From positions 769 through 64,768 of the IMG/VR virus record IMGVR_UViG_3300033489_000009: a stretch of 64,000 nucleotides of DNA. The stretch is one strand, 5' to 3'. Numbering within the stretch: position 1 is the first letter of the stretch; each line of letters begins with the position of its first letter. Positions 10,562 through 31,390 of the stretch are shown here, piece by piece. Below the pieces are notes generated by a model. The model was not told where the DNA came from. It was given only the letters and a program-made list of their open reading frames with translations, and did no database searches. Made by a program: the position numbers and the translations under genes. The DNA is from a virus.

Positions 10562-11115
10562 CGCCCCGCCGTGGCAGCCGACAGGACGAGGTCGAGCAGA
10601 CCCCCCACGGCGAGCGTCAGGGCGGCCGCGAATGCCACGAGGAGCGCCATCTCGACCACGGACGACCCGCCGTCAGCCAGGGACCGGCCACCACGGCCGT
10701 CCAGGAGCCACCGGAACCCGTCCGGATAGCGGACCGGGACCCTGCCCGGATCGACACCACGGCGGACCTTCCACCCGGCCGCGTATGCCCGCTCCGGGTG
10801 GTCCTCCAGCCAGCCGTTGTCCAACCGGCAGACCATGATGATCGACTCGACCTGGTTGACCGCCGGGTCTGAGCTGCCGCCCATGCCGCGGTTGACGCGG
10901 TGGTTCGGCACCAGCTCCGGAGCAGGGTGGTCGTGGCAGAGGAGGCCGACGACGCACTGCCCGTCCCGGGCGATCGCGGCGAGCTTGGTGTCCTGGGAGG
11001 GGCCAGTCTGGCGGGGCCGGGAGCGGACCGCCGGTGCCCGGCGGAGACCCGTCCGCCGCACCATTGCGGACCCGGCACGCAGCGCCGTCCGCCGCGTCAA
11101 CGCAGCCCGCCTCAC
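10558..11115 (-). CDS. HNH-like nuclease with C-terminal hydrophobic prepilin-like tail
   Basis: RDGQCVV...HRVNRGMGG...N..IIMVC..DNGWLE.HPE.A...GW; C-terminal GGSSVVEMALLVAFAAALTLAVGG. Confidence 0.65.
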   Translation of the reverse strand: MRRAALTRRTALRAGSAMVRRTGLRRAPAVRSRPRQTGPSQDTKLAAIARDGQCVVGLLCHDHPAPELVPNHRVNRGMGGSSDPAVNQVESIIMVCRLDNGWLEDHPERAYAAGWKVRRGVDPGRVPVRYPDGFRWLLDGRGGRSLADGGSSVVEMALLVAFAAALTLAVGGLLDLVLSAATAGR

Positions 11116-12773
11116 GCTGCCACGTCCTCTCCAGTGATTGCCTCGACCAGGGCCGAGCCGATGACCTCCGCGCACGGCGGGCAGACCGCGTTCCCGTAGC
11201 CGGCGACCTGCTCCCGCTTCGTACCGATGACCTGGTAGTCGGGGGCGAACGCCATCCCGGCCGCGATCTCCTCCGGGGCGAGCATCCGGAACGTGCAGTC
11301 TTCGACCGCCGGCACGTCCGTGGGCTGGACGAGCGCGTACCGGTCGCGGGTCGTCAGCGTGCCCATCGGTTCCGACGACGGCCGGGCCACGCCGGTGCCG
11401 TAGTAGGGCAGCATCAGCGCCTCACCCCAGGTGATCAGCGACTGGTGGCCCCTGGTGGTCAGGGTGCGCAGCGCCTCGCCCACCGGGGTAGACATCTCGG
11501 CGCCGTCACCGCGGGAGGAGTTGTTCCGCATCACCATCGCCGGTGGGTTGACCAGGGCGTGGTGGGTGCCGTCTGCGCTGAACGTGGTCAGCGGGTCGAG
11601 CATGCTGTAGGCGGCTTTCCTGGACCCGCCACCGCGCAGCAGCACCCAGAACGGGGCCTGCACGAGCGCGGTCTCCAGCCGGGTCGTCTGCGTCCGCAAC
11701 GGGGCACCAGACGGGGAGGCTGACCTCCCCTCCCGGGCTGTGGTCGGCACCAGAAGCCCGTCGGTCTCCCTGGTGGTCCGGGACGGCATCGGCGCGTCGA
11801 TCGGGTGCGCCCCGCCGCGCCACGTCCCACCGGCGGGGGCCAGCATCGGCAGGCCCGCGTACCGGCGTAGGCCAGCCTCGATCCGGGCGATCGTCGCTGG
11901 CTGCAACGGCCGGGACCGATCGCCGATCCGAGCACCCGGGTACAGGTCCCAGTCGATCGCTGCCGCGGCCGGGAGCACCGCCGGGTCCACGATCTGGTGC
12001 CGGCACGCAGACCGGGGGCACCGGTACACGTACTGGCCGCCCGGCCCGTAGTTGCCCATGTCCTGCCCGGCCCGCTTCCACGACTGGACCGCGTCCACGA
12101 CCTCATCGCAGCTGGGGCAGTAGGCCTTGGGGCGCAGCCACCGGTCCCAGTCGGGGTCACGGCCGAAGCTGGCCAGCCAGTAGGCGAGGAAGTACCGGTC
12201 CCTCGATTGGGGTGCGCGGCGGGTCCGGATCGACTGGGCGTGCATCGCGTTGAGCGCGATCAGCCGCGTCCGGTACGGGCCGATCGCCTCGATCTCGCGG
12301 CGCCACACGTCGTGCTGGTCCCACTTCCGCGCCTGGGGCACGTTCTCCACGACCCCGGCGAGCACCGGCCGGCCGCGGTCGGCCATGGCCCGCAGGTAGC
12401 GCGGGACCTCGTCCATGAGTGCCCGCCGCTTCACCAGGTCGAGCCGCTTGGACCGCTCCACCGGCGACTCGGCCGGGTCCTCGAACAGGGTCGCCTCGGT
12501 CGCAGTGTCGAAGTACTGCTTCTCGCCGCGGGCATTGGAGAACGGCGGGCACGACGGGGATGCCCAGAACAGGTCTGCTCGCGGGAATCGGGTGATGTCG
12601 GCCTTGGTGACGTCGCCGAGGTAGTGGTCGGCGTGCGGGAAGTTCCGTGCGTGGACGTCGATCGCGATGGGTGCGTGGTTCGCGGCGAGCATGACCTGCA
12701 CTCCGGGCACGGCGGCGAATCCTTGGGAGGAGCCACCCCAGCCGGCGAACTCGTCGTACAGGGTCAGGGTCAC
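11112..12773 (-). CDS. DNA cytosine-5 methyltransferase
   Basis: Motifs I (DEFAGWGG), IV (SPSCPPFS), VI (ENV), VIII (QSRDRYF), IX (RML..EEIA..M.F) and X (GNAVCPP). Confidence 0.93.
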   Translation of the reverse strand: MTLTLYDEFAGWGGSSQGFAAVPGVQVMLAANHAPIAIDVHARNFPHADHYLGDVTKADITRFPRADLFWASPSCPPFSNARGEKQYFDTATEATLFEDPAESPVERSKRLDLVKRRALMDEVPRYLRAMADRGRPVLAGVVENVPQARKWDQHDVWRREIEAIGPYRTRLIALNAMHAQSIRTRRAPQSRDRYFLAYWLASFGRDPDWDRWLRPKAYCPSCDEVVDAVQSWKRAGQDMGNYGPGGQYVYRCPRSACRHQIVDPAVLPAAAAIDWDLYPGARIGDRSRPLQPATIARIEAGLRRYAGLPMLAPAGGTWRGGAHPIDAPMPSRTTRETDGLLVPTTAREGRSASPSGAPLRTQTTRLETALVQAPFWVLLRGGGSRKAAYSMLDPLTTFSADGTHHALVNPPAMVMRNNSSRGDGAEMSTPVGEALRTLTTRGHQSLITWGEALMLPYYGTGVARPSSEPMGTLTTRDRYALVQPTDVPAVEDCTFRMLAPEEIAAGMAFAPDYQVIGTKREQVAGYGNAVCPPCAEVIGSALVEAITGEDVAA

Positions 12774-14026: not shown

Positions 14027-14055
14027 GGGTTTCCTTCCTTGCGTTCTGGGGTGGT

Positions 14056-14083
14056 GCCCGGGGGCCGGTGGAGGCCCCCGGGC
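14056..14083. terminator. GC-rich hairpin (11-bp stem, 6-nt loop)
   Basis: GCCCGGGGGCC-GGTGGA-GGCCCCCGGGC, intergenic, just downstream of the Gly-rich gene. Confidence 0.6.
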
Positions 14084-14093
14084 CCGGGACTTC

Positions 14094-14411
14094 TTAGTCG
14101 CCGTCGCCGCCGCCGTAGCCGCCGCCGTCGCCGCCGCCGTCGCCGTCGCCGTCGCCGTAGCCGCCGCCGTAGCCGCCGCCGTCGCCGTCGCCGTCGCCGT
14201 AGCCGCCGCCGTAGCCGCCGCCGCCGCCGTAGCCGCCGCCGTCGCCGTCGCCGTCGCCGTAGCCGCCGCCGTAGCCGCCGCCGTCGCCGTCGCCGTCGCC
14301 GTAGCCGCCGCCGTCGCCGTAGCCGTCGCCGCCGCCGCCGTAGCCGCCGTCGCCGCCGCCGTAGCCGATCGATGCGTGCGCCTCCTCCAGCACGGCGCAG
14401 GACGCGCTCAC
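14094..14411 (-). CDS. Gly/Asp/Tyr low-complexity repeat protein (105 aa)
   Basis: GYGDGDGDGGGYGGG-type tandem repeats; GTG start overlaps the upstream stop. Confidence 0.7.
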   Translation of the reverse strand: MSASCAVLEEAHASIGYGGGDGGYGGGGDGYGDGGGYGDGDGDGGGYGGGYGDGDGDGGGYGGGGGYGGGYGDGDGDGGGYGGGYGDGDGDGGGDGGGYGGGDGD

Positions 14412-14713
14412 AGCCGGTTGGCCCACTTCCCGGCGTCCGCGTCGATGACCAGCACGGTCGCGAGCTCGTGCGCCCGGACGGTCCCGCACCGGTCCAGGAC
14501 CGTCGACCCAGTGGGCCCCTCAGTCGCGATCTGGCCGAGGCCCTTGCTGGTGCCCCAGCGGCGGACGATCGCGGCGTCGGTCAGGACGTGCTCGTGGCCG
14601 TCTTTGGTGTGCCGGCCGACGGCGACCCAGCCGCGTTGCAGGACGAGGATCTTCACGTCGGCCGGGGCCGCAGGCTGGTCGGTGGGCTGGTCGGTCACTG
14701 TCGTCTCACTCAC
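14408..14713 (-). CDS. Conserved phage protein (DUF6948-like)
   Basis: KILVLQRGWVAVG...L.DA.IVRRWGT.KGLGQIA.EGP motif; this family typically precedes a GYGDG-rich gene. Confidence 0.75.
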   Translation of the reverse strand: MSETTVTDQPTDQPAAPADVKILVLQRGWVAVGRHTKDGHEHVLTDAAIVRRWGTSKGLGQIATEGPTGSTVLDRCGTVRAHELATVLVIDADAGKWANRL

Positions 14714-14776: not shown

Positions 14777-15532
14777 TCAGGCGGGCCGGTCTCGGGAGCG
14801 GGCGGCGGCGTATCGGGTTCGGAGTTCGCCGGGGCCGACCCGCTGCTCGCCGTCCGCAGACGGATCGGGGGCGGCGGTGGGCCAGAACGCGGGCTGGGTT
14901 GCGACCGGCCGCGCAGCGGCCTGGTCAGGTGGCGGAGAAGGATCCGGCCTGGAGGCTGTGGATGACGCAGGTGACGTACTCACCTGAGGTGATTGGTCTT
15001 GTGTGGTGGGAGTTCTGTTGGAGTAGTTCTTTAGCCCCCCATCCCGTGGGGGGCTAAGCCCCCCATCTGGTGACGGGCTGCGCCCCCCGTTGAGTGGGGG
15101 GCAACTTTCTGCGGTGTCACCCGGTTGCCCCCGACCGGATGGGGGGCAACTCCCGTTATCCACAACCTGTTGCCCACCAACAGACGGGGGGCAACTCCCC
15201 TCCTCGGAATCCGGGTTGCCCCCGACCGGATGGGGGGCAACTCCCGCGAAGAGCCTCAGCCGGTACTCCGCGTTCCGACCGTTCCCGGCACGCCGCTTCA
15301 CGACGATCGCGCCAGACCGCACCAGATGGCCGACCGCGTTCTCGACACGCCTGAACCCGGGCTCGGTATGCGGGGCGCCCAGCACGTCGGCCAGTGCTTC
15401 CCGGCCGCCGTAGTAGACCAGCTCCGGGTCGTCGTCGCGGCAGAGGTTCGCCATGAAGGCGAGCAGACGCCAGGACCGGTCAGGCAACTGTGCCCAGCGA
15501 GCGCATACGGCAGCCACGTTGGCCCTTCCCAT
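14777..15532 (-). CDS. Replication initiator (N-terminal winged HTH, internal iteron repeats)
   Basis: RLLAFMA...YYGGREALAD.LG...VENAVGHLVRSGAIVV...G..AEYRL; repeat region encodes SCPP units. Confidence 0.75.
   Translation of the reverse strand: MGRANVAAVCARWAQLPDRSWRLLAFMANLCRDDDPELVYYGGREALADVLGAPHTEPGFRRVENAVGHLVRSGAIVVKRRAGNGRNAEYRLRLFAGVAPHPVGGNPDSEEGSCPPSVGGQQVVDNGSCPPSGRGQPGDTAESCPPLNGGRSPSPDGGLSPPRDGGLKNYSNRTPTTQDQSPQVSTSPASSTASRPDPSPPPDQAAARPVATQPAFWPTAAPDPSADGEQRVGPGELRTRYAAARSRDRPA
15033..15245. repeat. Putative replication origin: palindromic iterons with a DnaA box
   Basis: GGGGGGCAACT at 15096, 15141, 15186 and 15232 (45-46 bp period); identical 32-mer GGTTGCCCCCGACCGGATGGGGGGCAACTCCC at 15123 and 15214; TTATCCACA at 15156-15164. 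Confidence 0.8.
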
Positions 15533-21521: not shown

Positions 21522-22379
21522 ATGACAGCCCGAGACCTGGGGGCCGCTGTCATCACCCGGTTCCTCGACGACAGCCGGGCACGCGGTCTCTCCACCGACG
21601 GAACCCTCCCCGGATGGCGCCGCACCCTCGACGCCCTCTCCCGCTGGGCCGACCAGCCCGTCCTCTACCTCACCGAGGACCAGCTCCGCGCCTGGGCCCG
21701 GGAACGGGCGAAGGAGATCCTCCCCCAGACCCTCCACGGCTACGTCGTCTGCCTCCGCGCGTTCTACTCCTGGGCGGTCCGCACCGGCCTCCTCTTCGAG
21801 AACCCGGCCCTCGCCCTCGAGCTACCCCGCCTGCCGAAACGCACCCCAGACCCGATCACCGAACGGGCGTACAGCCTGTGCGTCGACACCGCGCCCCTGG
21901 ACCTCGCCGCCTGCTACGGCCTCGCCGGGTTCGCGGGTCTGCGCGCCTGCGAGGTCGCCCGCCTCGCCTGGCCCGCCGTCCGGTGGGCCGAGCAGATGCT
22001 CCGCCTCGACGGGAAGGGCGAGGTCGAGCGGGTCGTGCCCATGTCGACGCCGCTCGCCGAGCTCCTCATCCGCCTCCCCGTCCGGGCCGCGGCCCGCCGG
22101 GGGCCGGTGATCCGCCGCCGCGACGGCCAGGCAGGCCACAACCGGCCGCACACCATCTCCCAGACCGCGAACACCTGGCTGGCCGACCACGACATCCCCT
22201 GGACGCTCCACAAGATGCGGCACCGGTTCGCCACCAGACTCCTCGACGAGGGCGCCGACGTCCGCATCGTCCAGGAGGCCCTCGGCCATGCGTCCCTATC
22301 GAGCACGGCGATCTACACGAAGGTCCGCCCAGAGCGGCTCCGGGCCGCGATCGAAGCAGCCGGCCGGATCATCGCCTGA
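21522..22379 (+). CDS. int: Tyrosine integrase lacking an N-terminal arm-binding domain (285 aa)
   Basis: GLRACEV (Arg), GKG (Lys), HKMRHRFAT (HxxR), LGH and AIY (Tyr) catalytic set. Confidence 0.93.
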   Translation: MTARDLGAAVITRFLDDSRARGLSTDGTLPGWRRTLDALSRWADQPVLYLTEDQLRAWARERAKEILPQTLHGYVVCLRAFYSWAVRTGLLFENPALALELPRLPKRTPDPITERAYSLCVDTAPLDLAACYGLAGFAGLRACEVARLAWPAVRWAEQMLRLDGKGEVERVVPMSTPLAELLIRLPVRAAARRGPVIRRRDGQAGHNRPHTISQTANTWLADHDIPWTLHKMRHRFATRLLDEGADVRIVQEALGHASLSSTAIYTKVRPERLRAAIEAAGRIIA

Positions 22380-23279: not shown

Positions 23280-23924
23280 ATGCCCAGCCGCGAGCGTGGA
23301 GTGACCCGCCCTGGTGAGCCTGCACGAATGCCGGCCGCCGGGCGGGTCTGCGGTCAGGATCGGGGTCCCGCATCCTGTGCGGGACCGGTCTGGGCCCGCG
23401 GCTTGTGCCGCCGCCATTACCGGCAGCAGGCCCGCGGCGGCGTGGTCGACGCGGGCGAGCGGGCGGTCGGGGCGCCGTCCGGACATGGCCAGTGGGGGAT
23501 CGTCGACGTCGACGAGGGTGACGGCGGGCGTCTGGTCTGCCACGACTGTGGCCGAACCTTCATTGCACTTGCTGTCCACATCGGGATGGTTCATGACGAC
23601 GTCCACCCCGGCGGGGTCCGTGAGTACAGGCTCCGGCACGGACTCCCGATGAGCGTGTCGCTCATCGCCCGGGATCTGGCCGCGAGGCTGGCTGAGGCGG
23701 CCCGCCCCGCGGCCAGCCGCCTGGCCGCGGTCAGGTCCCCGGACACCCTCGGCGCCCCGCAGGAAATGGTCACGCGTGGACTACGGCTGTCCCGGAGGGT
23801 GGGGCGTCCTCGACCGGATCGGTATCCCGCGATGCCACGAATTGGACCGGAAGCCCTGCGGCCGGTCCCGGACGGCGGTCCCGTCACGCTCCATCCGCGC
23901 GAGTCCCCCGACCACGTCTACTAG
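23280..23924 (+). CDS. MucR/Ros-like zinc-finger regulator
   Basis: N-terminal C..C..ARGLC..HY finger; LVCHDCGRTF..L..HI...H....VREYRLRHGLP..VSL. Confidence 0.7.
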   Translation: MPSRERGVTRPGEPARMPAAGRVCGQDRGPASCAGPVWARGLCRRHYRQQARGGVVDAGERAVGAPSGHGQWGIVDVDEGDGGRLVCHDCGRTFIALAVHIGMVHDDVHPGGVREYRLRHGLPMSVSLIARDLAARLAEAARPAASRLAAVRSPDTLGAPQEMVTRGLRLSRRVGRPRPDRYPAMPRIGPEALRPVPDGGPVTLHPRESPDHVY

Positions 23925-24026
23925 CGAGGCGCCGATTGCGTTTGCGGCGACTGATGCTCCCGTGGACCGCCTCCGATCGGCCCGCGCCGGCAGCCATTCC
24001 CAGATCCTCGCCTCCAGGTCATCCAT
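23781..24026 (-). CDS. Small winged-HTH-like protein, last gene of the Cas operon
   Basis: GGAGG RBS; MDDLEARIWEWL...ANAIGASLVDVVGGLARMERDGTAV...WHRG. Confidence 0.55.
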   Translation of the reverse strand: MDDLEARIWEWLPARADRRRSTGASVAANAIGASLVDVVGGLARMERDGTAVRDRPQGFRSNSWHRGIPIRSRTPHPPGQP

Positions 24027-24031
24027 GGCGT

Positions 24032-25045
24032 CTACCTCCAATCCCCTCGATCGTCGACCCGGACGGATGATGTCGCGGCACGCCGGGACCCCTTCACGAA
24101 TATCAGCGTGTGCTGGTGGCCTCGGCCGAGGCTCCGGCCGGTGCGCATCGCGTGATAGCCGCGCATCGCAGACGTCCCGCACGGTGGGATCAGGACCGCT
24201 GCCGACACCAGATGAAGCCCGGCATCCTCGAATGCGCGGATCGCCATGCCACGCAGATCGATCAGACGCCCATCCCGGGCCCGCACGTCTCCGATGACGA
24301 GGCCCGCGAACCTGTCGGCGCGCAGAGCGCACGCAGCGCCGTCGACGATCCGTCTCAGTGCTCGCTCATACTGATCCACGGTCATGGTCGACAGGTCGGC
24401 CGGATCGTCCGAGTACCTCTCCGTCCAGAGGTAGGGGGGGCATGTCCACACGAAGTCGACGCTGCCCGGATCCAGGGAATCGACCCACCGCGCTGCGTCG
24501 GCGTGCGCCCACTCCGCGGATGTCAGCGAGGGGATCCCTCGCATCGCCAGCTCGGCGCAATGGGCGCGGTTGGCCTCGACCTGGGCTGCCGAAAGATCAC
24601 ACCCGATGTACCGGCGGCCGATGACCGCGGCGACGACTCCCCTGGTGGGGCCCCCGGCGAACGGGTCCAGGATCAGCCACCCCGGCGCCGTCCACCACCG
24701 ATACGCCAGCTCGCACAAGACGGGATCGAATTGGCTGGTCCCGGTGCCGAACGCTCCGCCACCAGCCATGGAAGCCGACTGGCGGTACTGATCGGCCTCG
24801 AACTCGGCGGCCGTCAGATCCCTCCCTGCGGCATCCTTAGCCGCCTGAAACTGCTGGTAATAGCTCGGGTCACGGCTAGTCGCGGTCGACAGCAGGAGAC
24901 GCCCCGGTCGCCCGACACTCGGATCGAGCCCGATGGCAAGCCACTCCTTCCGGCGCGCCTGCCACTTCCCGCGCCGCTGATCGAGCAGGTCGAACGGCGG
25001 CAGGCCGGACAGCCGATCAGTGGCCGAAGGGATCGCAGCGCTCAC
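24032..25045 (-). CDS. SAM-dependent amino-methyltransferase (probably DNA m6A/m4C)
   Basis: TSQFDPVLCE..YRWW, ILDPFAGGPTRG, YIGCDLS and WTCPPY...Y motifs. Confidence 0.85.
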   Translation of the reverse strand: MSAAIPSATDRLSGLPPFDLLDQRRGKWQARRKEWLAIGLDPSVGRPGRLLLSTATSRDPSYYQQFQAAKDAAGRDLTAAEFEADQYRQSASMAGGGAFGTGTSQFDPVLCELAYRWWTAPGWLILDPFAGGPTRGVVAAVIGRRYIGCDLSAAQVEANRAHCAELAMRGIPSLTSAEWAHADAARWVDSLDPGSVDFVWTCPPYLWTERYSDDPADLSTMTVDQYERALRRIVDGAACALRADRFAGLVIGDVRARDGRLIDLRGMAIRAFEDAGLHLVSAAVLIPPCGTSAMRGYHAMRTGRSLGRGHQHTLIFVKGSRRAATSSVRVDDRGDWR

Positions 25046-25767
25046 CTAGGGGTCCTGTCGAGGCGGTCCCGCACGGAGCGGACCTCCGGGTAGTAGGTGT
25101 CCTCCCAGTCGCCGCGTCCATACTCGGCGCCTCTCGACCCACCCAGAGAGGACACCCGCAGCCGATCTCGAGGTATGACCCCACCGAATGACATTGCATA
25201 GGCGGGATGAAGTGGAAGGTCGTGCAGTGCCGCGTACGCCCACACGTCGGCAGACCTCCACCTGATGATCGGCCTGCATGATGTCGCCGTTACTACCCCG
25301 TGGACCGCAGCTGACATCCCGCGCGCCCGCGACTCGTCGGCCCGGAGCCCGGTGATTCGCCTCGGGCTCTCATGCTCCTCCAGCCACCGGTACGGGTTCG
25401 GGCTGGCGATCCCGTACTCACGGTAGGGGGTTGGCCACCGCGCGAGGTAGGCGTCGGCGACGGACTGGCAGTCCGGGTTGCGTAGCCTGTCCGTCCCTTC
25501 CCTGGCCCCGTATGTGACGTATATCAGCTCTATGTCTAGGTCGCGGGCGAGGTGAGCGACCGTGACCGAGTCGCGACCCCAGGAGACTCCGATGTGACAG
25601 GGACCGGCGGCGGCAAACCCTGCGATGCAGGTATGGGCTGCCTCGGCGAGCCGGTCCAGCCTGCGAGCGATGTGGGACGCCCGGACGGTGGCCGCGTCGT
25701 ATCGGGCCAGCCTGGACCACACGGCCCGGTCGTCGCCGGTGAGCCGCGGCGAGTCGATGAGAGCCAT
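25042..25767 (-). CDS. cysH: CysH-like (PAPS reductase family) protein of type IV-B systems
   Basis: PP-loop SWGRDS, ITGLRADESRAR, RPIIRW..ADVWAY...HDLPLHPAY. Confidence 0.88.
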   Translation of the reverse strand: MALIDSPRLTGDDRAVWSRLARYDAATVRASHIARRLDRLAEAAHTCIAGFAAAGPCHIGVSWGRDSVTVAHLARDLDIELIYVTYGAREGTDRLRNPDCQSVADAYLARWPTPYREYGIASPNPYRWLEEHESPRRITGLRADESRARGMSAAVHGVVTATSCRPIIRWRSADVWAYAALHDLPLHPAYAMSFGGVIPRDRLRVSSLGGSRGAEYGRGDWEDTYYPEVRSVRDRLDRTPR

Positions 25768-26492
25768 CAGACGGCCATCCCAGGGGTGACGGGCATCTTG
25801 CGGGTGCCATGCCAGTAGGGGGCCCTGACTGCGCCCGGGACGCCGCGCCCGACGGGGGCCGGGAAGTCGCGGTTCATCCATGCGTCCCGGTCGGCGGGGC
25901 CACCCTCCTGGACCTCGACCTTGAGGACGCGGCCGTTCCCGTGCCCGGTGACCCGGCCGAGGGCCCGGAGCCTGGTCAGGAGGCTGGCGGTGGCGTCCTG
26001 GTCGCCGAGCGCCCACCACGTGACATGGGTGACGAGACGCCCCGGGTAGGTGATGTTGCGGGCCTTGTGCGCGCCGAGCCCATCATGATGCCGGGCATCG
26101 GTCGTGTATCGGGCGTACTCCTGGGTGGGTGGCTTCTTGCGGATCTCGACGGCGGTGGTCCCGTGCTCGGTAAGGACGGCCCGTGAGCAGCACCAGCCCC
26201 ACACGGTGCCGTCGGCGGCAAGCAGGGCCGGATTAGTGCCGGCCGGTGCGGGTCTGGTCCAGGTGGCCAGCGGGACCCTGAAGTCCGCGCACCGGTCCAC
26301 GGTGAGCGGCGGCAGCACAACCCCGGACTCGCGGGCAGCCAGGTAGGCGCAGTACGCGAGCGGCCCGTCCAGATGCATCGGGTCCGCGACAGTGATCACC
26401 GGGTCGGCGATCGTGGCGACCACCCGGAACGGCCGCCACGCCGGGGACGCCACCGTGTCGGCGACATCCCCGACGCGCACGACCCTGCTCAC
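25767..26492 (-). CDS. csf3: Type IV Cas5-like subunit Csf3
   Basis: HLDGPL, W..S.A, and a C-terminal G-loop LGRVTGHGNGRV...W...R..P...RAPYWH. Confidence 0.85.
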   Translation of the reverse strand: MSRVVRVGDVADTVASPAWRPFRVVATIADPVITVADPMHLDGPLAYCAYLAARESGVVLPPLTVDRCADFRVPLATWTRPAPAGTNPALLAADGTVWGWCCSRAVLTEHGTTAVEIRKKPPTQEYARYTTDARHHDGLGAHKARNITYPGRLVTHVTWWALGDQDATASLLTRLRALGRVTGHGNGRVLKVEVQEGGPADRDAWMNRDFPAPVGRGVPGAVRAPYWHGTRKMPVTPGMAV

Positions 26493-27406
26493 GCCCGGAC
26501 CTGCAGCAGCGCCCGGATCGCGTCAGCGTGACCACTCAGGTGGTCGACGTACCGGGCCGCCGCCGCGGACACGTCGCCGGTGAGCTCGGAGGTGTCGGAG
26601 GACACGACAGCGCACCGGCCGAAACCCTGCGCGCCCCTCGCTCCCAGCCGCCACACGCCGCCCGCAGTGACCCGGGTCAGGGCCGCACACAGGGCGTCGA
26701 CCTCGGCAGGGACCGCCGCGTCGACACCGACCTCGAACGCCCACAGGGACCCCGCCTGGATCACCTGCATGTCGTAGATCATCTGCGTTGATGCGGGAGC
26801 TGCATCCCCGAACATGGCCTCCGCGACCAGCCGGTCCACCGAAGAGCCGGTCACGTCGTGGCGGGTCCCGAACTCTTCCCCCATCCAGTCGACCGCGCGC
26901 ATCCCGGCGGACGGGTCACGCATCACGGTGGCCGGGATCCGCCACTCATTCTCCCGGCAGGCCAGGTGCGCGTTGGATACGCGGAGGCTGCCGCGGACGA
27001 TGTCCGACCCCAGCGAGTAGCCGAGCAGCGGCAGGGACGGCAGGAGCGTGTGCCGCTCCGCCATCGCCCGCAGGTCGGTTTGTGCGCCGGTCTCCGTCAA
27101 TGCCCCACCGGACCACAGGAGGTCGACGATCGCCTTCGGGAGACCGTTGTCGGGGACCTGCAGGGTGTCGACGGTGATCCAGGCGAGGGCATCCCGGATG
27201 GCGTGCCGGATCGAGTTGCCGGACACGAACGGGGTGCGGCGACGCTCCCCGTCCGGGCCGACGGAGTCCTGCATGCGCACCAGGGCGGTGTTACCGGCGG
27301 TGCCTGCGCCGTGGTGGATCGGGTCGAGGGCGCGGAGGGTGACGGGGATGCGGGCCGTGACGGTCCGCTGGTAGGTGCCGGCCCCCGCCTCGATGGTGGC
27401 AGTCAT
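26489..27406 (-). CDS. csf2: Type IV Cas7-like backbone Csf2
   Basis: LDPIHHG..TAGNT..R, PFVSGNSIRH.IR, LWSGGAL, LPLLG, QMIY..Q....G and LGARGAQGFGRC G-loop. Confidence 0.9.
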   Translation of the reverse strand: MTATIEAGAGTYQRTVTARIPVTLRALDPIHHGAGTAGNTALVRMQDSVGPDGERRRTPFVSGNSIRHAIRDALAWITVDTLQVPDNGLPKAIVDLLWSGGALTETGAQTDLRAMAERHTLLPSLPLLGYSLGSDIVRGSLRVSNAHLACRENEWRIPATVMRDPSAGMRAVDWMGEEFGTRHDVTGSSVDRLVAEAMFGDAAPASTQMIYDMQVIQAGSLWAFEVGVDAAVPAEVDALCAALTRVTAGGVWRLGARGAQGFGRCAVVSSDTSELTGDVSAAAARYVDHLSGHADAIRALLQVRA

Positions 27407-27852
27407 CAGAACATGGCTCCTGTGTCGTCGGTGGCTGCGGGCGCTGCGGATGTCTTGGTGGCCTTGTCGGCGCGCTTGTCGGCGCGGCGGAGACGCACCA
27501 TCGCCGCGATGTAGACGGCATCCCTTTCTGCGATCCGGCGCCACCGGGCGAACGTGACCGGGTCGGCCAGTGCGGCCTCGATCCCGGCGACCGTCCGGCC
27601 TGTGTGCTCAGGGAGTGTCGCCACCTGCAGTTTCCCGGACATGACGGTGACCATGTCCCGGATGCTGGTGGCGCGCGCTGCCGCAGCGGTCAATGCCGTG
27701 GTGGCGCGCGGCCACCAGTGGGCGACACCGATCGTCGCGACGTCGGCGGCGCCGAGCATCGCGTCGAGCATGTCCTCGGCGACGACAGCGAGAACGTCGT
27801 CGGGGACGTTGGGTGGGAGCCGGTCAGGCCGCGTAGCGGTCGGCGAGGTCAC
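27406..27852 (-). CDS. cas11: Type IV-B small subunit Cas11
   Basis: 148 aa all-helical protein (HWWPR..TAL..AAARA) between csf1 and csf2, the canonical IV-B position. Confidence 0.7.
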   Translation of the reverse strand: MTSPTATRPDRLPPNVPDDVLAVVAEDMLDAMLGAADVATIGVAHWWPRATTALTAAAARATSIRDMVTVMSGKLQVATLPEHTGRTVAGIEAALADPVTFARWRRIAERDAVYIAAMVRLRRADKRADKATKTSAAPAATDDTGAMF

Positions 27853-28561
27853 GGATGGTCTCCTTCGTGGTCATGTGCAGCGCGAGCTGCAGTAGAGGTG
27901 AGTTGGCGTGTGGTGCGACCGTCGGCGACCAGCGCCGCCATGCGGTCAGCCCGTCCCTGGTCAGGGCCGGGACGGTTGGGGTGACGGCGTGGATACTGTC
28001 CGGGTTGTGTCCAGCGAGGCGTAGCGCGGCGCATGCCCCGATCAGAGCCCCGTACTCGGTGGGGGTGGCGTCGACGACGCATCCCTCGATCCGGGCCAGG
28101 ACCAGGGCCGCGCCGGGCGCGTTGACGGGCGTGTACGGGAGGAGGTGTTTCTGGCCTGAGACGGCGATCGTGACCGCCCATACGTCGTCCGGGGGGTCCG
28201 TGAGTGCGGCGATGATCGCGGACTGGTCCTTGCGGTTGCAGAGGTGTAGCCGGCCATCGGATGGGTATGGGGCGGATGGTGCCCCCGTCGGGAGGATGGT
28301 GGCGGCGGTGGTGAGGATCGACCACATCCGTAGTGTCTGCGGCGGTTTCCCGGCGAGGGCCCACGCGCACGGCTCGCACACCGTCGACAGGTCCGGGCGG
28401 GCCGCGGTGAGGATGTCGAAGTTCTTGCCGAGCGCATCCCGCGCCCGTAGGTGCCGGTGGTGGGTCACCCCGCACACCACGCACCCGGCGTCGGCGGCGA
28501 TCGCCTTCGGGTGGGATGGCCCACCGGCTGCGTCCCACGCCATCCGGACCGCCGTCAGCAT
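27824..28561 (-). CDS. csf1: Type IV large subunit Csf1 (Cas8-like)
   Basis: CVVCG...LG.NF...CEPCAWAL.GKPP.TLRMWS and W.V.IA.SGQKH.LPY..VN motifs. Confidence 0.85.
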   Translation of the reverse strand: MLTAVRMAWDAAGGPSHPKAIAADAGCVVCGVTHHRHLRARDALGKNFDILTAARPDLSTVCEPCAWALAGKPPQTLRMWSILTTAATILPTGAPSAPYPSDGRLHLCNRKDQSAIIAALTDPPDDVWAVTIAVSGQKHLLPYTPVNAPGAALVLARIEGCVVDATPTEYGALIGACAALRLAGHNPDSIHAVTPTVPALTRDGLTAWRRWSPTVAPHANSPLLQLALHMTTKETIRDLADRYAA

Positions 28562-29238
28562 GCCGGCACCTGGGCTGGCGCTGGGCGGGCGAGGATGAGA
28601 CCGCACCCGAAACTCTTGTTCCGGCCTACACCCTCGGCCATGAGCGCGTGCATGGCCGGCTCGTCGCAGACCCGGCCCTCGAATCGCAGCAGTGTGTGAT
28701 TCGAATGCTGGACCCGGCCCTCCTTCACCCTGCGGCCGGTCAGGTGCCATGCCCCGGCCATGGTCACGTCGAGCCCGTCGAGGATCCCCGCGAGCCTGCC
28801 CGCCAGCACCTCCACCATCGCCTCCGGCGGGCGGACCGTATGCCGCCGTTTCTCCGACCGGGCGGAGAGTTTCCCCGGGATCTGCCCTGCCGCGACCAGC
28901 TCGCATTCCCGGACCCACTGACTGTGCGACTGGCCTGACTGGCCTGAGTCCATCACGACGGCCCCCGATATCAGGGCCCCGGCGGTCGGCCACCAGTACG
29001 GGCTGTGGGTGGTGTTGATCGCCCACCCTCGGGGCCAGTCCTCACGGGTGATGGGCCGGTCGTGGCGGACGATCAGGACCCTCGGCTTAGGTATGGCCCA
29101 CAGGACGGGCCGGGGCTGCTCCCCAGCGAGGGCGGCCTGGGTGACCAGGTCGTGGAGATGCTTGACGTCCGCCGACCGGGGATCCCGGTCGGTGATCTGC
29201 ACCGTGGTGAGTATCAGTGGGCTTCCTATCGTGTCCAT
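28555..29238 (-). CDS. cas6e: Cas6 (Cas6e-like) RAMP endoribonuclease
   Basis: N-terminal D..HLH, VLW, and C-terminal RFEGRV.D..AM..LM.EGVGRNKSFGCGLI G-loop. Confidence 0.85.
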   Translation of the reverse strand: MDTIGSPLILTTVQITDRDPRSADVKHLHDLVTQAALAGEQPRPVLWAIPKPRVLIVRHDRPITREDWPRGWAINTTHSPYWWPTAGALISGAVVMDSGQSGQSHSQWVRECELVAAGQIPGKLSARSEKRRHTVRPPEAMVEVLAGRLAGILDGLDVTMAGAWHLTGRRVKEGRVQHSNHTLLRFEGRVCDEPAMHALMAEGVGRNKSFGCGLILARPAPAQVPAC

Positions 29239-29240
29239 GG

Positions 29241-29519
29241 TCAGTTCCCCTCATGGCCGTGCTGGTGTCGGTCGCGCCACGCCTCTAGCTCCACTACGCG
29301 GTCCTCGATGGACGGCGGAGGGACAGGTGCTGCCCGCTGGCCCCGGTACGCCTCGACGTCTCCGCGGCGGTACCGGCGGTGGCCGCGGCCGCGCGCGCCC
29401 CCGGGCGTCTGCGAGTAGGGCAGCTCACGTCTGGGGATGCGCCAGACGGTGACTGGATCGACCTGTAGCAGCTTGGCGACTTCACCGGTGCTGAGGGTCT
29501 CGTCGTCGGTGGCGGGCAT
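29241..29519 (-). CDS. MerR-like/excisionase-type (BldC-like) HTH regulator heading the Cas operon
   Basis: LSTGEVAKLLQVDPVTVWR...TPGG...HRRYRRGDVEAY; AAGGAGAGG RBS. Confidence 0.85.
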   Translation of the reverse strand: MPATDDETLSTGEVAKLLQVDPVTVWRIPRRELPYSQTPGGARGRGHRRYRRGDVEAYRGQRAAPVPPPSIEDRVVELEAWRDRHQHGHEGN

Positions 29520-29537
29520 CCCTCTCCTTGGGATCAG

Positions 29538-29635
29538 TGCAAGGTGTGTGCTGGTCGCAAGGGTAGAGGGAGCGGCATTCACGTCGACATCATCGCGCGC
29601 CCCGTGCAAGCCTTGCAAGGGGTGAAAGGTGTGTG
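29538..29635. promoter_or_regulatory. Divergent control region with repeated (T/C)GCAAG motifs
   Basis: TGCAAGG at 29538, CGCAAGG at 29556, inverted repeat TGCAAG-C-CTTGCA at 29605-17 flanked by CCCC/GGGG; AAGGTGTGTG at 29541 and 29626. Confidence 0.6.
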
Positions 29636-29683: not shown

Positions 29684-30420
29684 GTGACCGTCCCCGCCCT
29701 GCAGCTCGCCGACGTGTGCGAGTCGTGCCGGCAGTGCCCCGGCACCCGGTGGATCCTCGGAGGCGACGGTGAGTCGCCGTTCCTGGTCTGCCAGGGCTGC
29801 GCACCGACCCCCCTGTCAGCCTCCGTCCCGCCATCCCCCAGCACGGTTCCCCCGGCCGTGCCGGCGGGGCGGAGGCCCACCAACCAGACCGCCCGGGCCG
29901 TCGCGATCCAGGCCGCCGGGATCAGCACCGTCGGCGTCAGCCTTTGGGCGCTGACCCGCATCGCCGGCGGCGGCACGCTCCTCGTCCTCGGCGCGGAGGC
30001 CAGCGTCCTTTGCCTCGGCTACGCCGCCCGGGCGTTCGGTGGTGCCAGGTGATCCGGGTCATCGCCGCGGCCGCGGTGTTCGTCGCCGGCTGGCTGGTCC
30101 TCGCGACGCAGGGGGAGGCGATCGCGGCGGCCCTTGAGCGGATCGTGCTGGTGCTGGTCGCAGGCGCCGCTGCCCTCACCGTGATCGTCGTCGGTGGCGT
30201 GGTCCTGGTCCGCCGTCTGGTCAGGCCGAGCGAACAGCCGGCACCGCAGGTCCCGGATCACTCCCAGGAGCTCCCAGCGCTGGGAACTGACTGCGCTCGT
30301 GGCTGCGGCCGACCGGGGACCGTGCTGCTCGCCGGGGCCGGTTCCCTGCCGTTTCTGGTCTGCCAGCGGTGCGCCGACGTGCACACCGGCCGCGTCCAGC
30401 CCCGCGGAGCGCGGCCGTGA
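29684..30420 (+). CDS. Two coupled membrane proteins with a shared Zn motif (29684-30052, 30049-30420)
   Basis: Both have hydrophobic helices and a C..C...PFLVCQ.CA motif; GTGA overlap. Confidence 0.6.
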
Positions 30421-30427
30421 ACCGGCT

Positions 30428-30561
30428 CGTTCCGGAAGTACTCATCCGGAACGGCTGCGTTGTGGCGCCGGATCGGGGAGCGCGTCCTGCACCGATGCCG
30501 TTCCGGATGTCCGTTCCAGCCGTCCGGCCGTCCCGATCGGCTCCCGCCCACTTCCGGAACG
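30428..30561. other. Putative res site of the serine resolvase
   Basis: CGTTCCGGA-AGTACTCA-TCCGGAACG inverted repeat (30428-53); half-sites at 30499, 30512 and 30553; directly upstream of the resolvase. Confidence 0.7.
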
Positions 30562-30580
30562 ACAGCGAGGGGGATCTCAG

Positions 30581-31390
30581 ATGACCATGCTCGGCTACGC
30601 CCGCGTGAGCACCACCGACCAGGACCCTGCCCCGCAGGTCGCGCAGCTGCGCGCCGCGGGCTGCGACCGGGTCTTCGTCGAGTCGGCGTCCGGGTACCGC
30701 GATGACCGGCCCGAGCTGGCCGCGCTCCTGGACTACGCGCGGGACGGCGACGTGATCGTCATCTGGCGCCTCGACCGACTCGCCCGCTCCACCACCCACC
30801 TCCTGTCGCTGTCCGCCGATCTCGACAAGCGCGGGATTGGGCTGAAGTCCCTGTCCGACCCGATCGACACGACCTCGGCGACGGGCAGGTTGGTCTACAC
30901 CCTCCTGGCCGCGATCGCCCAGTTCGAGGGTGACCTGCGCCGGGAGCGCCAGCAGATCGCGTGGGAGGCCGGGAAGCCGAAGGGCCGCCCACCGACGCTG
31001 ACCGGCGGCCAGCGCGACCTCGCCGCCCGGCTCCGCGGTGAGGGCAAGTCGCTGGCCGAGATCGGGCGGGCGGTCGGGGCGCCGAAGACGACGATCCACC
31101 GGCACCTCACCGCGCTCCTGGCCGTGATCAGCGGCCGGCGCACCGCCCCGCTCGCCGTGTCCCTGCTCGCGTTCGCGGTGCTCGCAGGGTTTGGCGTCGT
31201 CTCGATGCTTGCGGTCGCTGCCGGCGCGACGTCGCCGCTGCTGCTGCCCGGGCTGGTGGCCACCGCGCTGACGATGCTGGTCTTACAGGGCTGCACCGCC
31301 AGTGCGCCTGCCGGGGCGCGGGGGCCGGTGAGGGTCCGTCCGCCGGTCCGGATCCGCCCGATCATGCCGATGGCGGTGGCCTGGTCATGA
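30581..31390 (+). CDS. Serine resolvase/invertase with HTH and a C-terminal two-helix hydrophobic extension
   Basis: GYARVST.DQ, RPEL, WRLDRLARS, GRPP and HTH, followed by LAVSLLAFAVLAGFGVVSMLAVAAG and LLLPGLVATALTMLVL. Confidence 0.9.
   Translation: MTMLGYARVSTTDQDPAPQVAQLRAAGCDRVFVESASGYRDDRPELAALLDYARDGDVIVIWRLDRLARSTTHLLSLSADLDKRGIGLKSLSDPIDTTSATGRLVYTLLAAIAQFEGDLRRERQQIAWEAGKPKGRPPTLTGGQRDLAARLRGEGKSLAEIGRAVGAPKTTIHRHLTALLAVISGRRTAPLAVSLLAFAVLAGFGVVSMLAVAAGATSPLLLPGLVATALTMLVLQGCTASAPAGARGPVRVRPPVRIRPIMPMAVAWS

What the first reader, a model, noticed from the sequence alone, without database searches (positions are those of the whole stretch)
24032..25767. CysH-like enzyme and methyltransferase as a paired modification module
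Seen: a PP-loop CysH-like gene overlapping by 4 nt a methyltransferase with FAGG then CPPY motifs. Established: PAPS-reductase-family proteins take part in DNA modification systems (DndC in phosphorothioation) and occur in phage modification clusters. Inference: the two enzymes may build a two-step base or backbone modification, which would give the unexplained IV-B CysH a concrete biochemical role.
Basis: partly seen in the sequence, partly recalled or inferred. Interest (0 to 1): 0.75.

Follow-up and report, generated by a model that had tools for sequence, protein, structure and literature searches.

The report
Phage type IV-B operon carrying a methyltransferase
A temperate actinobacterial-type phage carries a type IV-B CRISPR-Cas operon whose puzzling CysH-like enzyme is followed by a DNA methyltransferase gene; related phages have repeatedly placed unrelated methyltransferases beside cysH, which makes methylation a testable clue to what type IV-B systems do.

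Summary
On the minus strand, a CysH-like PP-loop gene (25042-25767, motif SWGRDS) overlaps by 4 nt (GTGA) a 337-aa methyltransferase gene (24032-25045, FAGG then CPPY). Both end the operon cas6e-like, csf1, cas11, csf2, csf3, cysH, MTase, small gene, in a 65-kb siphophage genome.

The overlap itself is ordinary: 18 of 60 same-strand gene pairs in the window overlap by 4 nt. The pairing is not ordinary.
- Among 140 dereplicated CasCysH loci, 22 have a DNA MTase directly beside cysH, on either side.
- All 22 lie in one half of the CysH tree, where they are 22 of 46 evaluable loci.
- Two unrelated families fill the slot: a permuted N6/N4 type and Dam. The swap and insertion boundaries are clean.
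- In the other half of the tree, SPOUT methyltransferases abut cysH in 7 loci.

An obligate two-step CysH-MTase pathway is unlikely.
- 78 of 100 evaluable loci have no adjacent DNA MTase.
- The closest long-contig relative has cysH followed directly by the small gene.
- The MTase family has thousands of stand-alone or ParB-fused members in phages that lack CysH.

Best reading: an autonomous DNA amino-methyltransferase cassette, recruited as an accessory whose mark matters to the IV-B/CysH system. This is a new variant of a known kind.

The parts
29241..29600 (-). small HTH protein (BldC/excisionase-like) just upstream of the operon; possible regulator
   Evidence: PF12728 HTH_17 E 1.8e-7 and NF033787 HTH_BldC E 1.4e-6. 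The start codon is approximate.
28555..29238 (-). cas6e-like (CasE/Cse3 family) gene, first gene of the operon
   Evidence: PF08798 CRISPR_assoc E 7.5e-9 over residues 22-219. The same family lies upstream of csf1 in 35 of 140 locus clusters.
27824..28561 (-). csf1 (small Cas8-like subunit with a CxxC...CxxC zinc-finger pattern)
   Evidence: No profile hit. It is homologous and syntenic with the csf1-position gene in 98 locus clusters and 54% identical to the L102 gene.
27406..27852 (-). cas11-like small-subunit candidate
   Evidence: A 148-aa ORF lies between csf1 and csf2. The codon-position GC pattern of the gap points to this frame. It falls in a family found at the same position in 46 clusters. 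There is no Pfam hit, so the assignment rests on position only.
26489..27409 (-). csf2 (Cas7)
   Evidence: TIGR03115 cas7_csf2 E 3.6e-6; homologues found in 133 of 180 loci.
25767..26492 (-). csf3 (Cas5)
   Evidence: TIGR03116 cas5_csf3 E 6.7e-16. Its stop overlaps the cysH start by 1 nt, TGATG.
25042..25767 (-). CysH-like PP-loop enzyme (CasCysH)
   Evidence: PF01507 E 1.4e-8. The AF2 model has pLDDT 94.2 with a PP-loop ATP-pyrophosphatase fold. It is a member of the Csf-linked CysH family. There is no C-terminal catalytic Cys.
25567..25584 (-). PP-loop motif SWGRDS
   Evidence: S62, G64, D66 and S67 are invariant in the family alignment.
25042..25045 (-). GTGA overlap of the cysH stop and the MTase start
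24032..25045 (-). ParB-less member of the phage ParB-MTase family: a circularly permuted N6/N4-type DNA amino-methyltransferase
   Evidence: PF01555 over motif I. PADLOC MTase_II E 9.6e-14 over residues 123-280. Permuted matches to solved N4C/N6A DNA MTases. 45-51% identity to ParB-fused homologues. AF2 model pLDDT 89.8.
24650..24661 (-). motif I FAGG, within DPFAGG (SAM binding)
24431..24442 (-). motif IV CPPY, within TCPPY (catalytic)
   Evidence: C, P and P are invariant and Y nearly so across 62 family members
23781..24026 (-). conserved 81-aa gene ('geneX') starting 5 nt after the MTase stop; in relatives it follows cysH directly
   Evidence: 72% aa identity to the gene directly after cysH in L102, and 60-63% in L187, L188 and L189. 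No Pfam hit.

Best explanation
What it is. The 337-aa protein is an intact, self-sufficient DNA exocyclic-amine methyltransferase (N6-adenine or N4-cytosine; which one is unknown). It comes from the widespread phage and mobile-element ParB-MTase family. It has lost the ParB domain and sits as a single-gene cassette of about 1 kb between cysH and a conserved small downstream gene. That places it at the 3' end of a phage-borne type IV-B operon (cas6e-like, csf1, cas11, csf2, csf3, cysH, MTase, geneX), so it is made together with CysH.

What CysH is. CysH is a PP-loop ATP-pyrophosphatase-type enzyme that lacks the PAPS-reductase catalytic cysteine. It does not need the MTase, because most CasCysH loci have none.

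How the two relate (inferred). Unrelated MTases have been recruited beside cysH again and again. This suggests that the methylation state of nucleic acid matters to the IV-B/CysH system. My preferred mechanism is that the MTase lays a sequence-specific methyl mark on the phage's and lysogen's own DNA. That mark would exempt the DNA from the Csf-CysH activity and/or from restriction. This is modification-based self/non-self logic, as in R-M, BREX and Dnd. It is not a shared biosynthetic route.

Shown: gene identities, intact motifs, the operon position, cassette gain/loss and swaps, and the distribution on the CysH tree. Inferred: DNA as the substrate, co-transcription, and the self-marking role.
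For: DNA MTase identity.
- PADLOC type II MTase model, E 9.6e-14, covering motifs I to IV in the same linear order.
- Sequence matches to solved N4C/N6A DNA MTases (2zie, 8s9n, CcrM, M.MboIIA) in two permuted pieces.
- Most of 118 close homologues carry an N-terminal ParB domain.
- All 25 family-invariant residues are present.

Autonomy.
- The three contexts inspected for close homologues (P0041, P0049, P0006) are phage-like and lack Csf and CysH.
- The MTase family occurs in 29 isolated-phage records, while the CysH query found no match in 50,697 phage records.

Cassette nature.
- The window and L102 are collinear from csf1 to cysH. GeneX then follows the MTase in the window but follows cysH directly in L102, L188 and L189.

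Non-random link.
- 18 of the 19 loci that hold this MTase family within about 9 kb have it directly abutting cysH.
- 11 are upstream and 7 downstream, often with a 4-nt overlap.
- Dam-type MTases abut cysH in 4 further loci.
- L088 (Dam) and L012 (N6/N4 type) share 79% and 75% nt identity in the flanks, with a non-homologous 800 bp exactly between the csf3 stop and the cysH start.
- L007 has a Dam-type insertion after cysH relative to L108, with 86.5% identical flanks.
- All 22 cases lie in one half of the CysH tree: 22 of 46 evaluable there against 0 of 54 in the other half.
- The tree needs at least 8 gains or losses of an adjacent MTase.
- Downstream neighbours in MTase-less loci show no other recurrent family.
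- SPOUT MTases abut cysH in 7 loci of the other clade.
Against: - No experiment or methylome is at hand. The substrate (DNA or RNA) and the target base are not determined.
- The best fold matches are tRNA m2G MTases (Trm11, TrmN, Trm14; Z 18.2-19.6), only slightly above generic class I MTases (Z 15-17).
- If the mark were required for self-protection, the 78 evaluable loci without an adjacent DNA MTase would need another explanation. L102 is one of them.
- A closer relative, L187 (CysH C-terminus 93% identical), has an MTase that lacks the first ~92 residues. That hints the MTase is dispensable.
- The phage carries two other MTases (9788-10561 and 11112-12773), so this one may simply be further anti-restriction cargo.
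- Linked genes inherited together inflate the counts. Independent events number perhaps 5-8.
Confidence: 0.4

Rival explanations
1. Hitch-hiking cargo. The MTase is an ordinary orphan anti-restriction methyltransferase that landed in a permissive, hypervariable slot at the end of the IV-B operon. It has no functional tie to CysH or Csf beyond shared expression timing.
For: - The family is a common solitary or ParB-fused phage MTase.
- It is present or absent among close relatives.
- The phage has three MTases, and the operon lies in a lysogeny/moron region between a tyrosine integrase and a serine recombinase.
- 4-nt overlaps are routine in this genome.
- Both junctions flanking cysH accept many unrelated inserts.
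Against: - When this MTase family is present in a IV-B phage locus, it abuts cysH in 18 of 19 cases, although about 25 gene slots are sampled per locus.
- Adjacency is kept through upstream/downstream rearrangement.
- Dam replaces it precisely in the same slot.
- MTases make up about half of the gene-bearing inserts between csf3 and cysH: 14 DNA MTases plus 2 SPOUT of roughly 30. MTase genes are about 4% of the genes in this phage.
Confidence: 0.3
2. CysH and the MTase act one after the other on the same nucleotide to build a compound base or backbone modification. For example, CysH would activate a position by adenylation and substitution, and the MTase would then methylate it.
For: - Tight operon coupling.
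- PP-loop enzymes activate nucleobase carbonyls or the DNA backbone (TilS, TtuA, NcsA, DndC are fold relatives).
- PAPS-reductase-like genes sit with ParB and MTase genes in actinophages such as Salgado gp5-gp8.
- CysH and the MTase share a lower GC3 (0.80) than the csf genes (0.86-0.90).
Against: - 78 of 100 evaluable CasCysH loci lack an adjacent DNA MTase.
- Non-homologous MTases (Dam, permuted N6/N4 type, SPOUT) substitute for one another. This is hard to reconcile with one special intermediate.
- Stand-alone MTase homologues keep the same invariant catalytic residues.
- The closest long-contig relative lacks the MTase.
Confidence: 0.12
3. Guided effector. The Csf ribonucleoprotein recruits the ParB-less MTase, standing in for the lost ParB DNA-loading domain, so that methylation is aimed at RNA-specified DNA targets for epigenetic silencing of competitors.
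For: - All 18 Csf-linked MTases lack the ParB domain that most relatives carry.
- The operon has a Cas6e-like gene, which implies guide processing.
- Type IV-A acts by nuclease-free silencing.
- Pinilla-Redondo et al. speculated on epigenetic silencing for IV-B.
Against: - ParB-less family members also occur without Csf (P0041, P0049).
- Dam-type replacements have no known recruitment surface.
- Most IV-B loci lack an MTase.
- There is no CRISPR array on the 64.9-kb contig.
Confidence: 0.1
4. RNA methyltransferase. The enzyme methylates an exocyclic amine (for example m2G or m6A) in the RNA held by the Csf complex or in a target RNA.
For: - Top structural matches are the tRNA m2G MTases Trm11, TrmN and Trm14, in the same linear motif order.
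- TIGR01177, E 3.3e-4.
- The IV-B complex binds RNA.
- SPOUT RNA-type MTases take the same slot in the other clade.
Against: - No THUMP or other RNA-binding domain was found.
- Sequence profiles favour DNA MTases.
- ParB fusions occur in relatives.
- Replacement by Dam, a DNA enzyme.
Confidence: 0.08

Closest known systems
Type IV-B CRISPR-Cas with CasCysH (for example Mycobacterium sp. JS623 plasmid; Zhou 2021, Taylor 2021, Pinilla-Redondo 2020)
   Same: csf1, cas11, csf2 and csf3 followed by a cysH-like gene. No adaptation genes, no nuclease or helicase, and no CRISPR array on the contig. Carried by a mobile element. CysH has a PP-loop and lacks the catalytic Cys.
   Different: This locus is on a tailed phage. 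It begins with a Cas6e-like gene, reported as rare in IV-B (12 instances). It ends with a DNA MTase and a small conserved gene. The papers I read draw an 'N6-MTase' in a locus figure (Shmakov 2018) but do not analyse any MTase link.
Phage and mobile-element ParB-MTase fusion family (for example Mycobacterium phage Vincenzo gp1, Listeria phage B054 gp77, Enterococcus phage phiFL3A gp36)
   Same: Homologous over 92-97% of the MTase at 34-51% identity. It shares DPFAGG, TCPPY and 25 invariant positions, and keeps the ~40-aa segment that the Csf-linked clade has lost.
   Different: No ParB domain. It is encoded inside a CRISPR-Cas type IV-B operon rather than near the terminase or genome ends.
Csf-linked ParB-less MTase clade (17 loci, for example prophages of Corynebacterium phocae, Corynebacterium sp. 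MSK041, Phytoactinopolyspora limicola)
   Same: Same family, ParB-less, directly abutting cysH.
   Different: The window's MTase lies outside that 98%-supported clade on a long branch. Grouping it with the clade has only 71% support. It is 37-44% identical to clade members and keeps the segment they lack. It may be an independent recruitment.
IbrA/IbrB-type PAPS-reductase plus ParB (plus MTase) clusters of phages (Gadjet gp1-5, Salgado gp5-8, Gaia gp103-104)
   Same: A PAPS-reductase-superfamily PP-loop enzyme is encoded next to ParB-family and MTase genes in actinophages. The same IbrA/ParB pair abuts CasCysH in 8 related loci.
   Different: IbrA-type enzymes are larger (about 400 aa, with DUF3440) and lie next to the terminase. 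Here the PP-loop enzyme is the short CasCysH type tied to Csf genes.
Modification-based defence systems that use PAPS-reductase relatives (DndC, SspD, BrxP) or MTases (R-M, BREX PglX)
   Same: The logic of an epigenetic mark combined with an effector. CysH belongs to the same superfamily.
   Different: There is no DndC-type profile match, only BrxP at E 9e-4. No cysteine desulfurase or restriction gene was seen next to the pair. The chemistry is unknown.

Membership tests
[quoted passage not shown] | csf2 (Cas7) and csf3 (Cas5) of the Csf type | tested here: met
   TIGR03116 E 6.7e-16 and TIGR03115 E 3.6e-6, both below NCBI's curated cut-offs. Supported by homology and synteny with more than 100 Csf loci.
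[quoted passage not shown] | csf1 and a cas11-like small subunit | tested here: inconclusive
   No profile hits. The assignment rests on position, zinc-finger pattern and family clustering: csf1 in 98 clusters, cas11-position ORF in 46 clusters.
[quoted passage not shown] | adjacent cysH-like gene; no DinG or RecD helicase; no adaptation genes | tested here: met
   cysH lies directly after csf3. No helicase or cas1/cas2 was found among the operon ORFs scanned.
[quoted passage not shown] | no associated CRISPR array and no Cas6 | tested here: not met
   No array in the window or the 64.9-kb contig. However, a Cas6e-like gene is present (PF08798 E 7.5e-9), so this is an atypical IV-B.
PAPS reductase sensu stricto (CysH, EC 1.8.4.8) | PAPS_reduct fold | tested here: met
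   PF01507 E 1.4e-8. Family profile against E. coli CysH (1sur), E 1.1e-8. Fold matches.
PAPS reductase sensu stricto (CysH, EC 1.8.4.8) | C-terminal catalytic cysteine (ECGLH-type tail) | tested here: not met
   Cysteines only at positions 47, 57, 100 and 164; the last 40 residues hold none. This agrees with Taylor 2021 for CasCysH.
CasCysH (type IV-B associated CysH-like clade) | canonical PP-loop SxGxDS and membership of the Csf-linked clade | tested here: met
   SWGRDS, with S62, G64, D66 and S67 invariant. It sits in a tree of 140 CysH clusters, nearly all next to csf genes.
DndC-type phosphorothioation enzyme | DndC profile match and dndA/D/E partners | tested here: not met
   PADLOC gives no DndC hit for the window protein, only BrxP at E 9e-4. 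No partner genes were seen in the operon. The rest of the window was not searched exhaustively.
N6/N4 DNA amino-methyltransferase (PF01555, beta class) | SAM-binding motif I (FxGxG) and catalytic motif IV ((D/S/N)PP(Y/F)) | tested here: met
   DPFAGG is present. Motif IV is the variant TCPPY, invariant across the family. It aligns to TSPPY of solved N4C MTases.
N6/N4 DNA amino-methyltransferase (PF01555, beta class) | linear order: motif IV, then target-recognition domain, then motif I | tested here: not met
   Motif I (residue 129) precedes motif IV (residue 202). The PDB matches come in two permuted pieces. The order is gamma-like, as in PADLOC MTase_II model PDLC03376.
ParB-MTase fusion family | N-terminal ParB (PF02195) domain | tested here: not met
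   No ParB hit. Most homologues extend a further ~130-220 aa at the N-terminus. The MTase core itself is homologous (E 4.6e-95, 51% identity).
Trm11/TrmN/Trm14 tRNA m2G methyltransferases | THUMP RNA-binding domain plus MTase domain | tested here: not met
   The MTase domain is the best fold match (Z 18.2-19.6). No THUMP domain was found by Pfam. The N-terminal 100 residues are short helices in the model.
Restriction-modification system | cognate restriction endonuclease next to the MTase | tested here: not met
   The neighbours are cysH and an 81-aa protein without a nuclease domain. The MTase is therefore an orphan.

The most novel reading that the evidence does not exclude
CasCysH may be the nucleic-acid-modifying effector of type IV-B systems, acting as a PP-loop adenylating enzyme. 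Methyltransferases would be its dedicated, interchangeable partners: DNA amino-MTases in actinobacterial prophages and phosphatase-SPOUT fusions elsewhere. They would either pre-empt the CysH reaction on self nucleic acid (immunity by methylation) or complete it. Type IV-B would then be an RNA-guided modification and discrimination system rather than a nuclease-free relic.
Probability: 0.25. Interest if true: 0.85.

Novelty: new variant of a known kind. Interest (0 to 1): 0.6.

Why it matters
The function of type IV-B systems and of their near-invariant CysH-like partner is still described as unclear in a 2026 paper.

Methyltransferases of three unrelated classes have been slotted directly beside cysH again and again, with clean swap boundaries. 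This gives a concrete, cheap experimental handle: methylomes and nucleoside mass spectrometry with and without cysH and the MTase, plus knockouts in cultured lysogens that carry these loci. Candidate strains are Corynebacterium phocae CCUG 38205T, C. striatum ATCC 6940, Cutibacterium porci and Phytoactinopolyspora limicola.

The result also narrows the hypotheses. An obligate CysH-MTase pathway is unlikely. A role for nucleic-acid modification state in IV-B biology becomes more likely.

Tried and rejected
- Complex prediction of CysH (alignment A1) with the MTase (alignment A2) gave no verdict (score 0.00, mark 0.32). I do not use it for or against binding.
- Foldseek against the PDB with the MTase model gave only generic class I MTase matches (TM 0.40-0.47). 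It is sequence-order dependent, so it could not show the permuted beta-class DNA MTases. VIA-wide separated the m2G tRNA MTases only slightly from the rest.
- The search of PLSDB plasmids found only two distant MTase hits and four distant CysH hits. The Rhodococcus jostii pRHL3 and Gloeobacter pGMOR1 IV-B loci have no MTase beside cysH.
- The promoter and terminator scan of the operon was uninformative: one weak promoter-like site and no terminator.
- I looked for CRISPR arrays in the window, the whole contig and 140 loci. Only L158 has a real array. Other hits were short-period coding repeats.
- I considered that the MTase adjoins cysH only because both lie in the pre-terminase region where phage MTases usually sit. 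In the window the operon lies between two recombinase genes, not next to the packaging genes. The 'between csf3 and cysH' arrangement is also not explained that way. Hence I kept this only as part of the hitch-hiking rival.
- Pfam and PADLOC gave nothing for several other recurrent cysH neighbours (cluster 38, cluster 92, geneX). The Atlas lead for cluster 38 was weak: a glycosyltransferase family on 12-17% of members.
- The 'own genome' is only the 64,944-bp contig, so no host genome could be examined.
Full report
**What is in the sequence**

The window has about 70% G+C. It covers nearly all of a 64,944-bp contig. The contig encodes a portal, head protease, major head protein and tape-measure protein, a tyrosine integrase (21522-22379) and a serine recombinase (30194-31390). 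It is therefore a temperate siphophage-type genome, probably of an actinobacterium.

On the minus strand between the two recombinase genes lies a tightly packed operon:
- a Cas6e-like gene (28555-29238; PF08798 E 7.5e-9)
- csf1 (27824-28561)
- a cas11-position ORF (27406-27852)
- csf2 (26489-27409; TIGR03115)
- csf3 (25767-26492; TIGR03116 E 6.7e-16)
- the CysH-like gene (25042-25767; PF01507 E 1.4e-8)
- the methyltransferase (24032-25045; PF01555, motif I region only)
- an 81-aa gene, here called geneX, five bases further on (23781-24026)

The cysH stop and the MTase GTG start share GTGA. There is no CRISPR array in the window or the contig.

The 4-nt overlap carries no weight on its own. By my rough gene calls, 18 of 60 same-strand neighbour pairs in this window overlap by 4 nt.

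**What the two proteins are**

The CysH-like protein folds with high confidence (pLDDT 94.2) as a PP-loop ATP-pyrophosphatase. Its nearest solved structures are tRNA thiolases (NcsA, TtuA), TilS, PAPS/APS reductases and CysD, at TM about 0.4-0.55. By profile it matches E. coli PAPS reductase (E 1e-8).

It has the canonical SxGxDS loop that true PAPS reductases lack, and it has no C-terminal catalytic cysteine. This matches the published description of CasCysH as a likely ATP alpha-hydrolase or adenylyl-transfer enzyme rather than a sulfonucleotide reductase.

The MTase also folds confidently (pLDDT 89.8). Several results indicate a DNA amino-methyltransferase whose motif order is circularly permuted relative to the beta class:
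- It matches solved N4-cytosine and N6-adenine DNA MTases in two permuted pieces.
- It matches a PADLOC type II MTase model across motifs I-IV in the same linear order (E 9.6e-14).
- It has more than 5000 homologues, most of them 470-530 aa with an N-terminal ParB domain.
- It keeps all 25 invariant family positions, including DPFAGG and TCPPY.

Its best fold matches are tRNA m2G MTases (Z 18.2-19.6), only slightly above generic MTases (Z 15-17). An RNA substrate therefore cannot be excluded. No THUMP or other RNA-binding domain was detected.

**Is the pairing more than chance?**

I fetched 179 loci encoding relatives of the CysH protein from genomes, metagenomes and viral contigs. I dereplicated them, together with the window, into 140 clusters at 90% CysH identity.

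I then clustered all ORFs across the loci. After CysH, Csf3, Csf2, Csf1, Cas11 and Cas6e-like (35 clusters), the most frequent family is this MTase family, in 19 clusters. In 18 of those 19 it directly abuts cysH. Eleven lie between csf3 and cysH, often with a 4-nt overlap onto cysH. Seven, including the window, lie just downstream.

A second, unrelated family abuts cysH in four further loci: D12/Dam N6-adenine DNA MTases (PF02086, E down to 6e-24).

On the CysH tree, all 22 cases fall in one 59-member half, whose named genomes are mostly actinobacterial prophages. They are 22 of 46 evaluable loci there, against 0 of 54 in the other half. At least 8 gains or losses are needed.

Pairwise DNA comparisons show clean cassette events:
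- L088 (Dam) and L012 (N6/N4 type) are 79% and 75% identical on either side of a non-homologous 800 bp. That segment lies exactly between the csf3 stop and the cysH start.
- L007 carries a Dam-type insert after cysH relative to L108, with 86.5% identical flanks.

Downstream neighbours in MTase-less loci show no other recurrent family. Between csf3 and cysH, about half of the gene-bearing inserts are MTases. MTase genes make up about 4% of the genes in this phage.

In the other half of the tree, a SPOUT (SpoU/TrmH) MTase abuts cysH in 7 loci, upstream or downstream. All three signature motifs are visible. Five of the seven are fused to an HCxxGxxRT cysteine-phosphatase domain.

Hence cysH attracts methyltransferases. 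This goes beyond what the papers I read say: Shmakov et al. list 'N6-MTase' in a figure legend of IV-B loci without comment.

**Is it a two-step pathway?**

The evidence leans against it.
- 78 of 100 evaluable loci have no adjacent DNA MTase.
- The window and L102, its closest relative on a long contig (CysH 67% identical), are collinear from csf1 through cysH. In L102, and in L188 and L189, geneX follows cysH directly. The MTase is thus a single-gene cassette of about 1 kb that is present in the window and absent there.
- A still closer soil contig, L187 (CysH C-terminus 93% identical), has the order cysH, MTase, geneX. Its MTase lacks the first ~92 residues, which suggests decay or dispensability.
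- The Csf-linked MTases form one ParB-less clade (98% support) whose topology looks congruent with the CysH tree by eye. That means long co-inheritance.
- The window's MTase sits outside that clade on a long branch. It is more similar to ParB-fused relatives (up to 51%) than to clade members (37-44%), and it keeps a ~40-aa segment the clade has lost. It is probably a separate recruitment.
- Family members work in phages that have no CysH. There are 29 isolated-phage records with the MTase family and no CysH match in 50,697 phage records. The three contexts inspected for close homologues lack Csf and CysH.
- Interchangeable, unrelated MTases are easier to explain by a generic methyl mark than by a reaction on a special CysH product.

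**Preferred mechanism and its rivals**

I favour, at about 0.4, an autonomous DNA MTase co-expressed with the IV-B genes. Its mark would matter to the system, most simply as a self-mark that exempts the phage's and lysogen's own DNA from Csf-CysH action and/or from restriction. This would parallel R-M, BREX and Dnd, where PAPS-reductase relatives already appear. It also fits the earlier speculation that IV-B is tied to epigenetic or R-M-related functions.

The main rival, at about 0.3, is pure hitch-hiking of anti-restriction cargo in a permissive slot. The phage has two further MTases, at 9788-10561 and 11112-12773. The remaining rivals are the two-step model (0.12), guided methylation by a ParB-less MTase recruited to Csf (0.10) and RNA methylation (0.08).

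A wider pattern supports some DNA-centred link between these enzyme families. IbrA-type PAPS reductases sit with ParB and MTase genes next to the terminase in isolated actinophages. The same IbrA/ParB pair abuts CasCysH in 8 loci.

**Verdict**

The locus is a new variant of type IV-B, being phage-borne and carrying both Cas6e-like and MTase genes. Its value lies in turning the IV-B/CysH puzzle into a set of simple methylome, mass-spectrometry and knockout experiments.

Noticed in passing
window 28555-29238 (-): A Cas6e-like gene heads this IV-B operon, although no CRISPR array exists on the 64.9-kb contig. The same family precedes csf1 in 35 of 140 locus clusters, far more than the 12 Cas6 instances reported for IV-B in 2019.
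   Followed up: partly
L111:9759-10514, L156:9680-10390, L041:815-1561, L048:4636-5544, L117:7100-8293, L176:8535-9011, L095:2319-2741: SPOUT (SpoU/TrmH) methyltransferases directly abut cysH, upstream or downstream, in 7 loci of the CysH clade that has no DNA MTases. Five carry an N-terminal HCFHGRDRTG cysteine-phosphatase motif. A phosphatase plus a 2'-O-MTase next to a PP-loop enzyme recalls RNA-end (cap-like) chemistry.
   Followed up: partly
L128:7103-8993, L121:10100-11949; also L079, L138, L147, L039, L057, L125: An IbrA-type PAPS reductase (PF01507 plus DUF3440) and a ParB-like partner lie directly beside CasCysH in 8 loci. These loci therefore hold two different PAPS-reductase-superfamily genes side by side.
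   Followed up: partly
L158:11967-12379: A genuine CRISPR-like array: 6 repeats of about 36 nt with a GTGATC...GATCAC hairpin, period 65-75 nt. It lies about 2.2 kb downstream of cysH, after a 665-aa ORF (L158:9959-11953). This would be a CysH-bearing type IV locus with its own array.
   Followed up: no
window 15120-15246: Three tandem copies of a 36-nt unit with a strong internal hairpin (GTTGCCCCC...GGGGGCAAC), period 45-46 nt. A k-mer scan counts four. The spacing is too tight for a CRISPR array. Possibilities are iterons, terminators or a protein-binding site. Whether the Cas6e-like protein could bind such hairpins is untested.
   Followed up: no
window 23781-24026 (-): A conserved 81-aa gene starts 5 nt after the MTase stop. 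It follows cysH directly in L102, L188 and L189 (60-72% aa identity), so it is the usual last gene of this sub-lineage's operon. It has no family match.
   Followed up: partly
L187:1-1186: A soil contig whose CysH C-terminus is 93% identical to the window's has the order cysH, MTase, geneX. Its MTase homology starts only at window residue 93, inside the cysH 3' end. It is an N-terminally truncated or decaying copy.
   Followed up: partly
window 9788-10561 (-) and 11112-12773 (-): Two further DNA MTase genes in the same phage: a canonical beta-class N6/N4 MTase (PF01555 E 7e-27) and a 553-aa MTase (phrog_116).
   Followed up: no
window 24032-25767 compared with 25767-29238: cysH and the MTase share a lower third-position GC (0.80 each) than csf3, csf2, csf1 and cas6 (0.86-0.90). 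This hints that the two have a different history from the csf genes.
   Followed up: no
L013:1571-2287, L042:9776-10456, L064:8375-8986, L078:3770-4627, L163:6907-8109: An unknown family of about 200-240 aa also recurs directly beside cysH or between csf3 and the MTase in 5 loci. It has no Pfam or PADLOC hit, and only a weak Atlas lead.
   Followed up: partly
window 14043-14414: A long run of 9- and 12-nt periodic repeats (25 registers of a 114-nt unit) inside a coding region, that is, a peptide-repeat protein. Similar short-period coding repeats occur in L102, L103 and L169.
   Followed up: no
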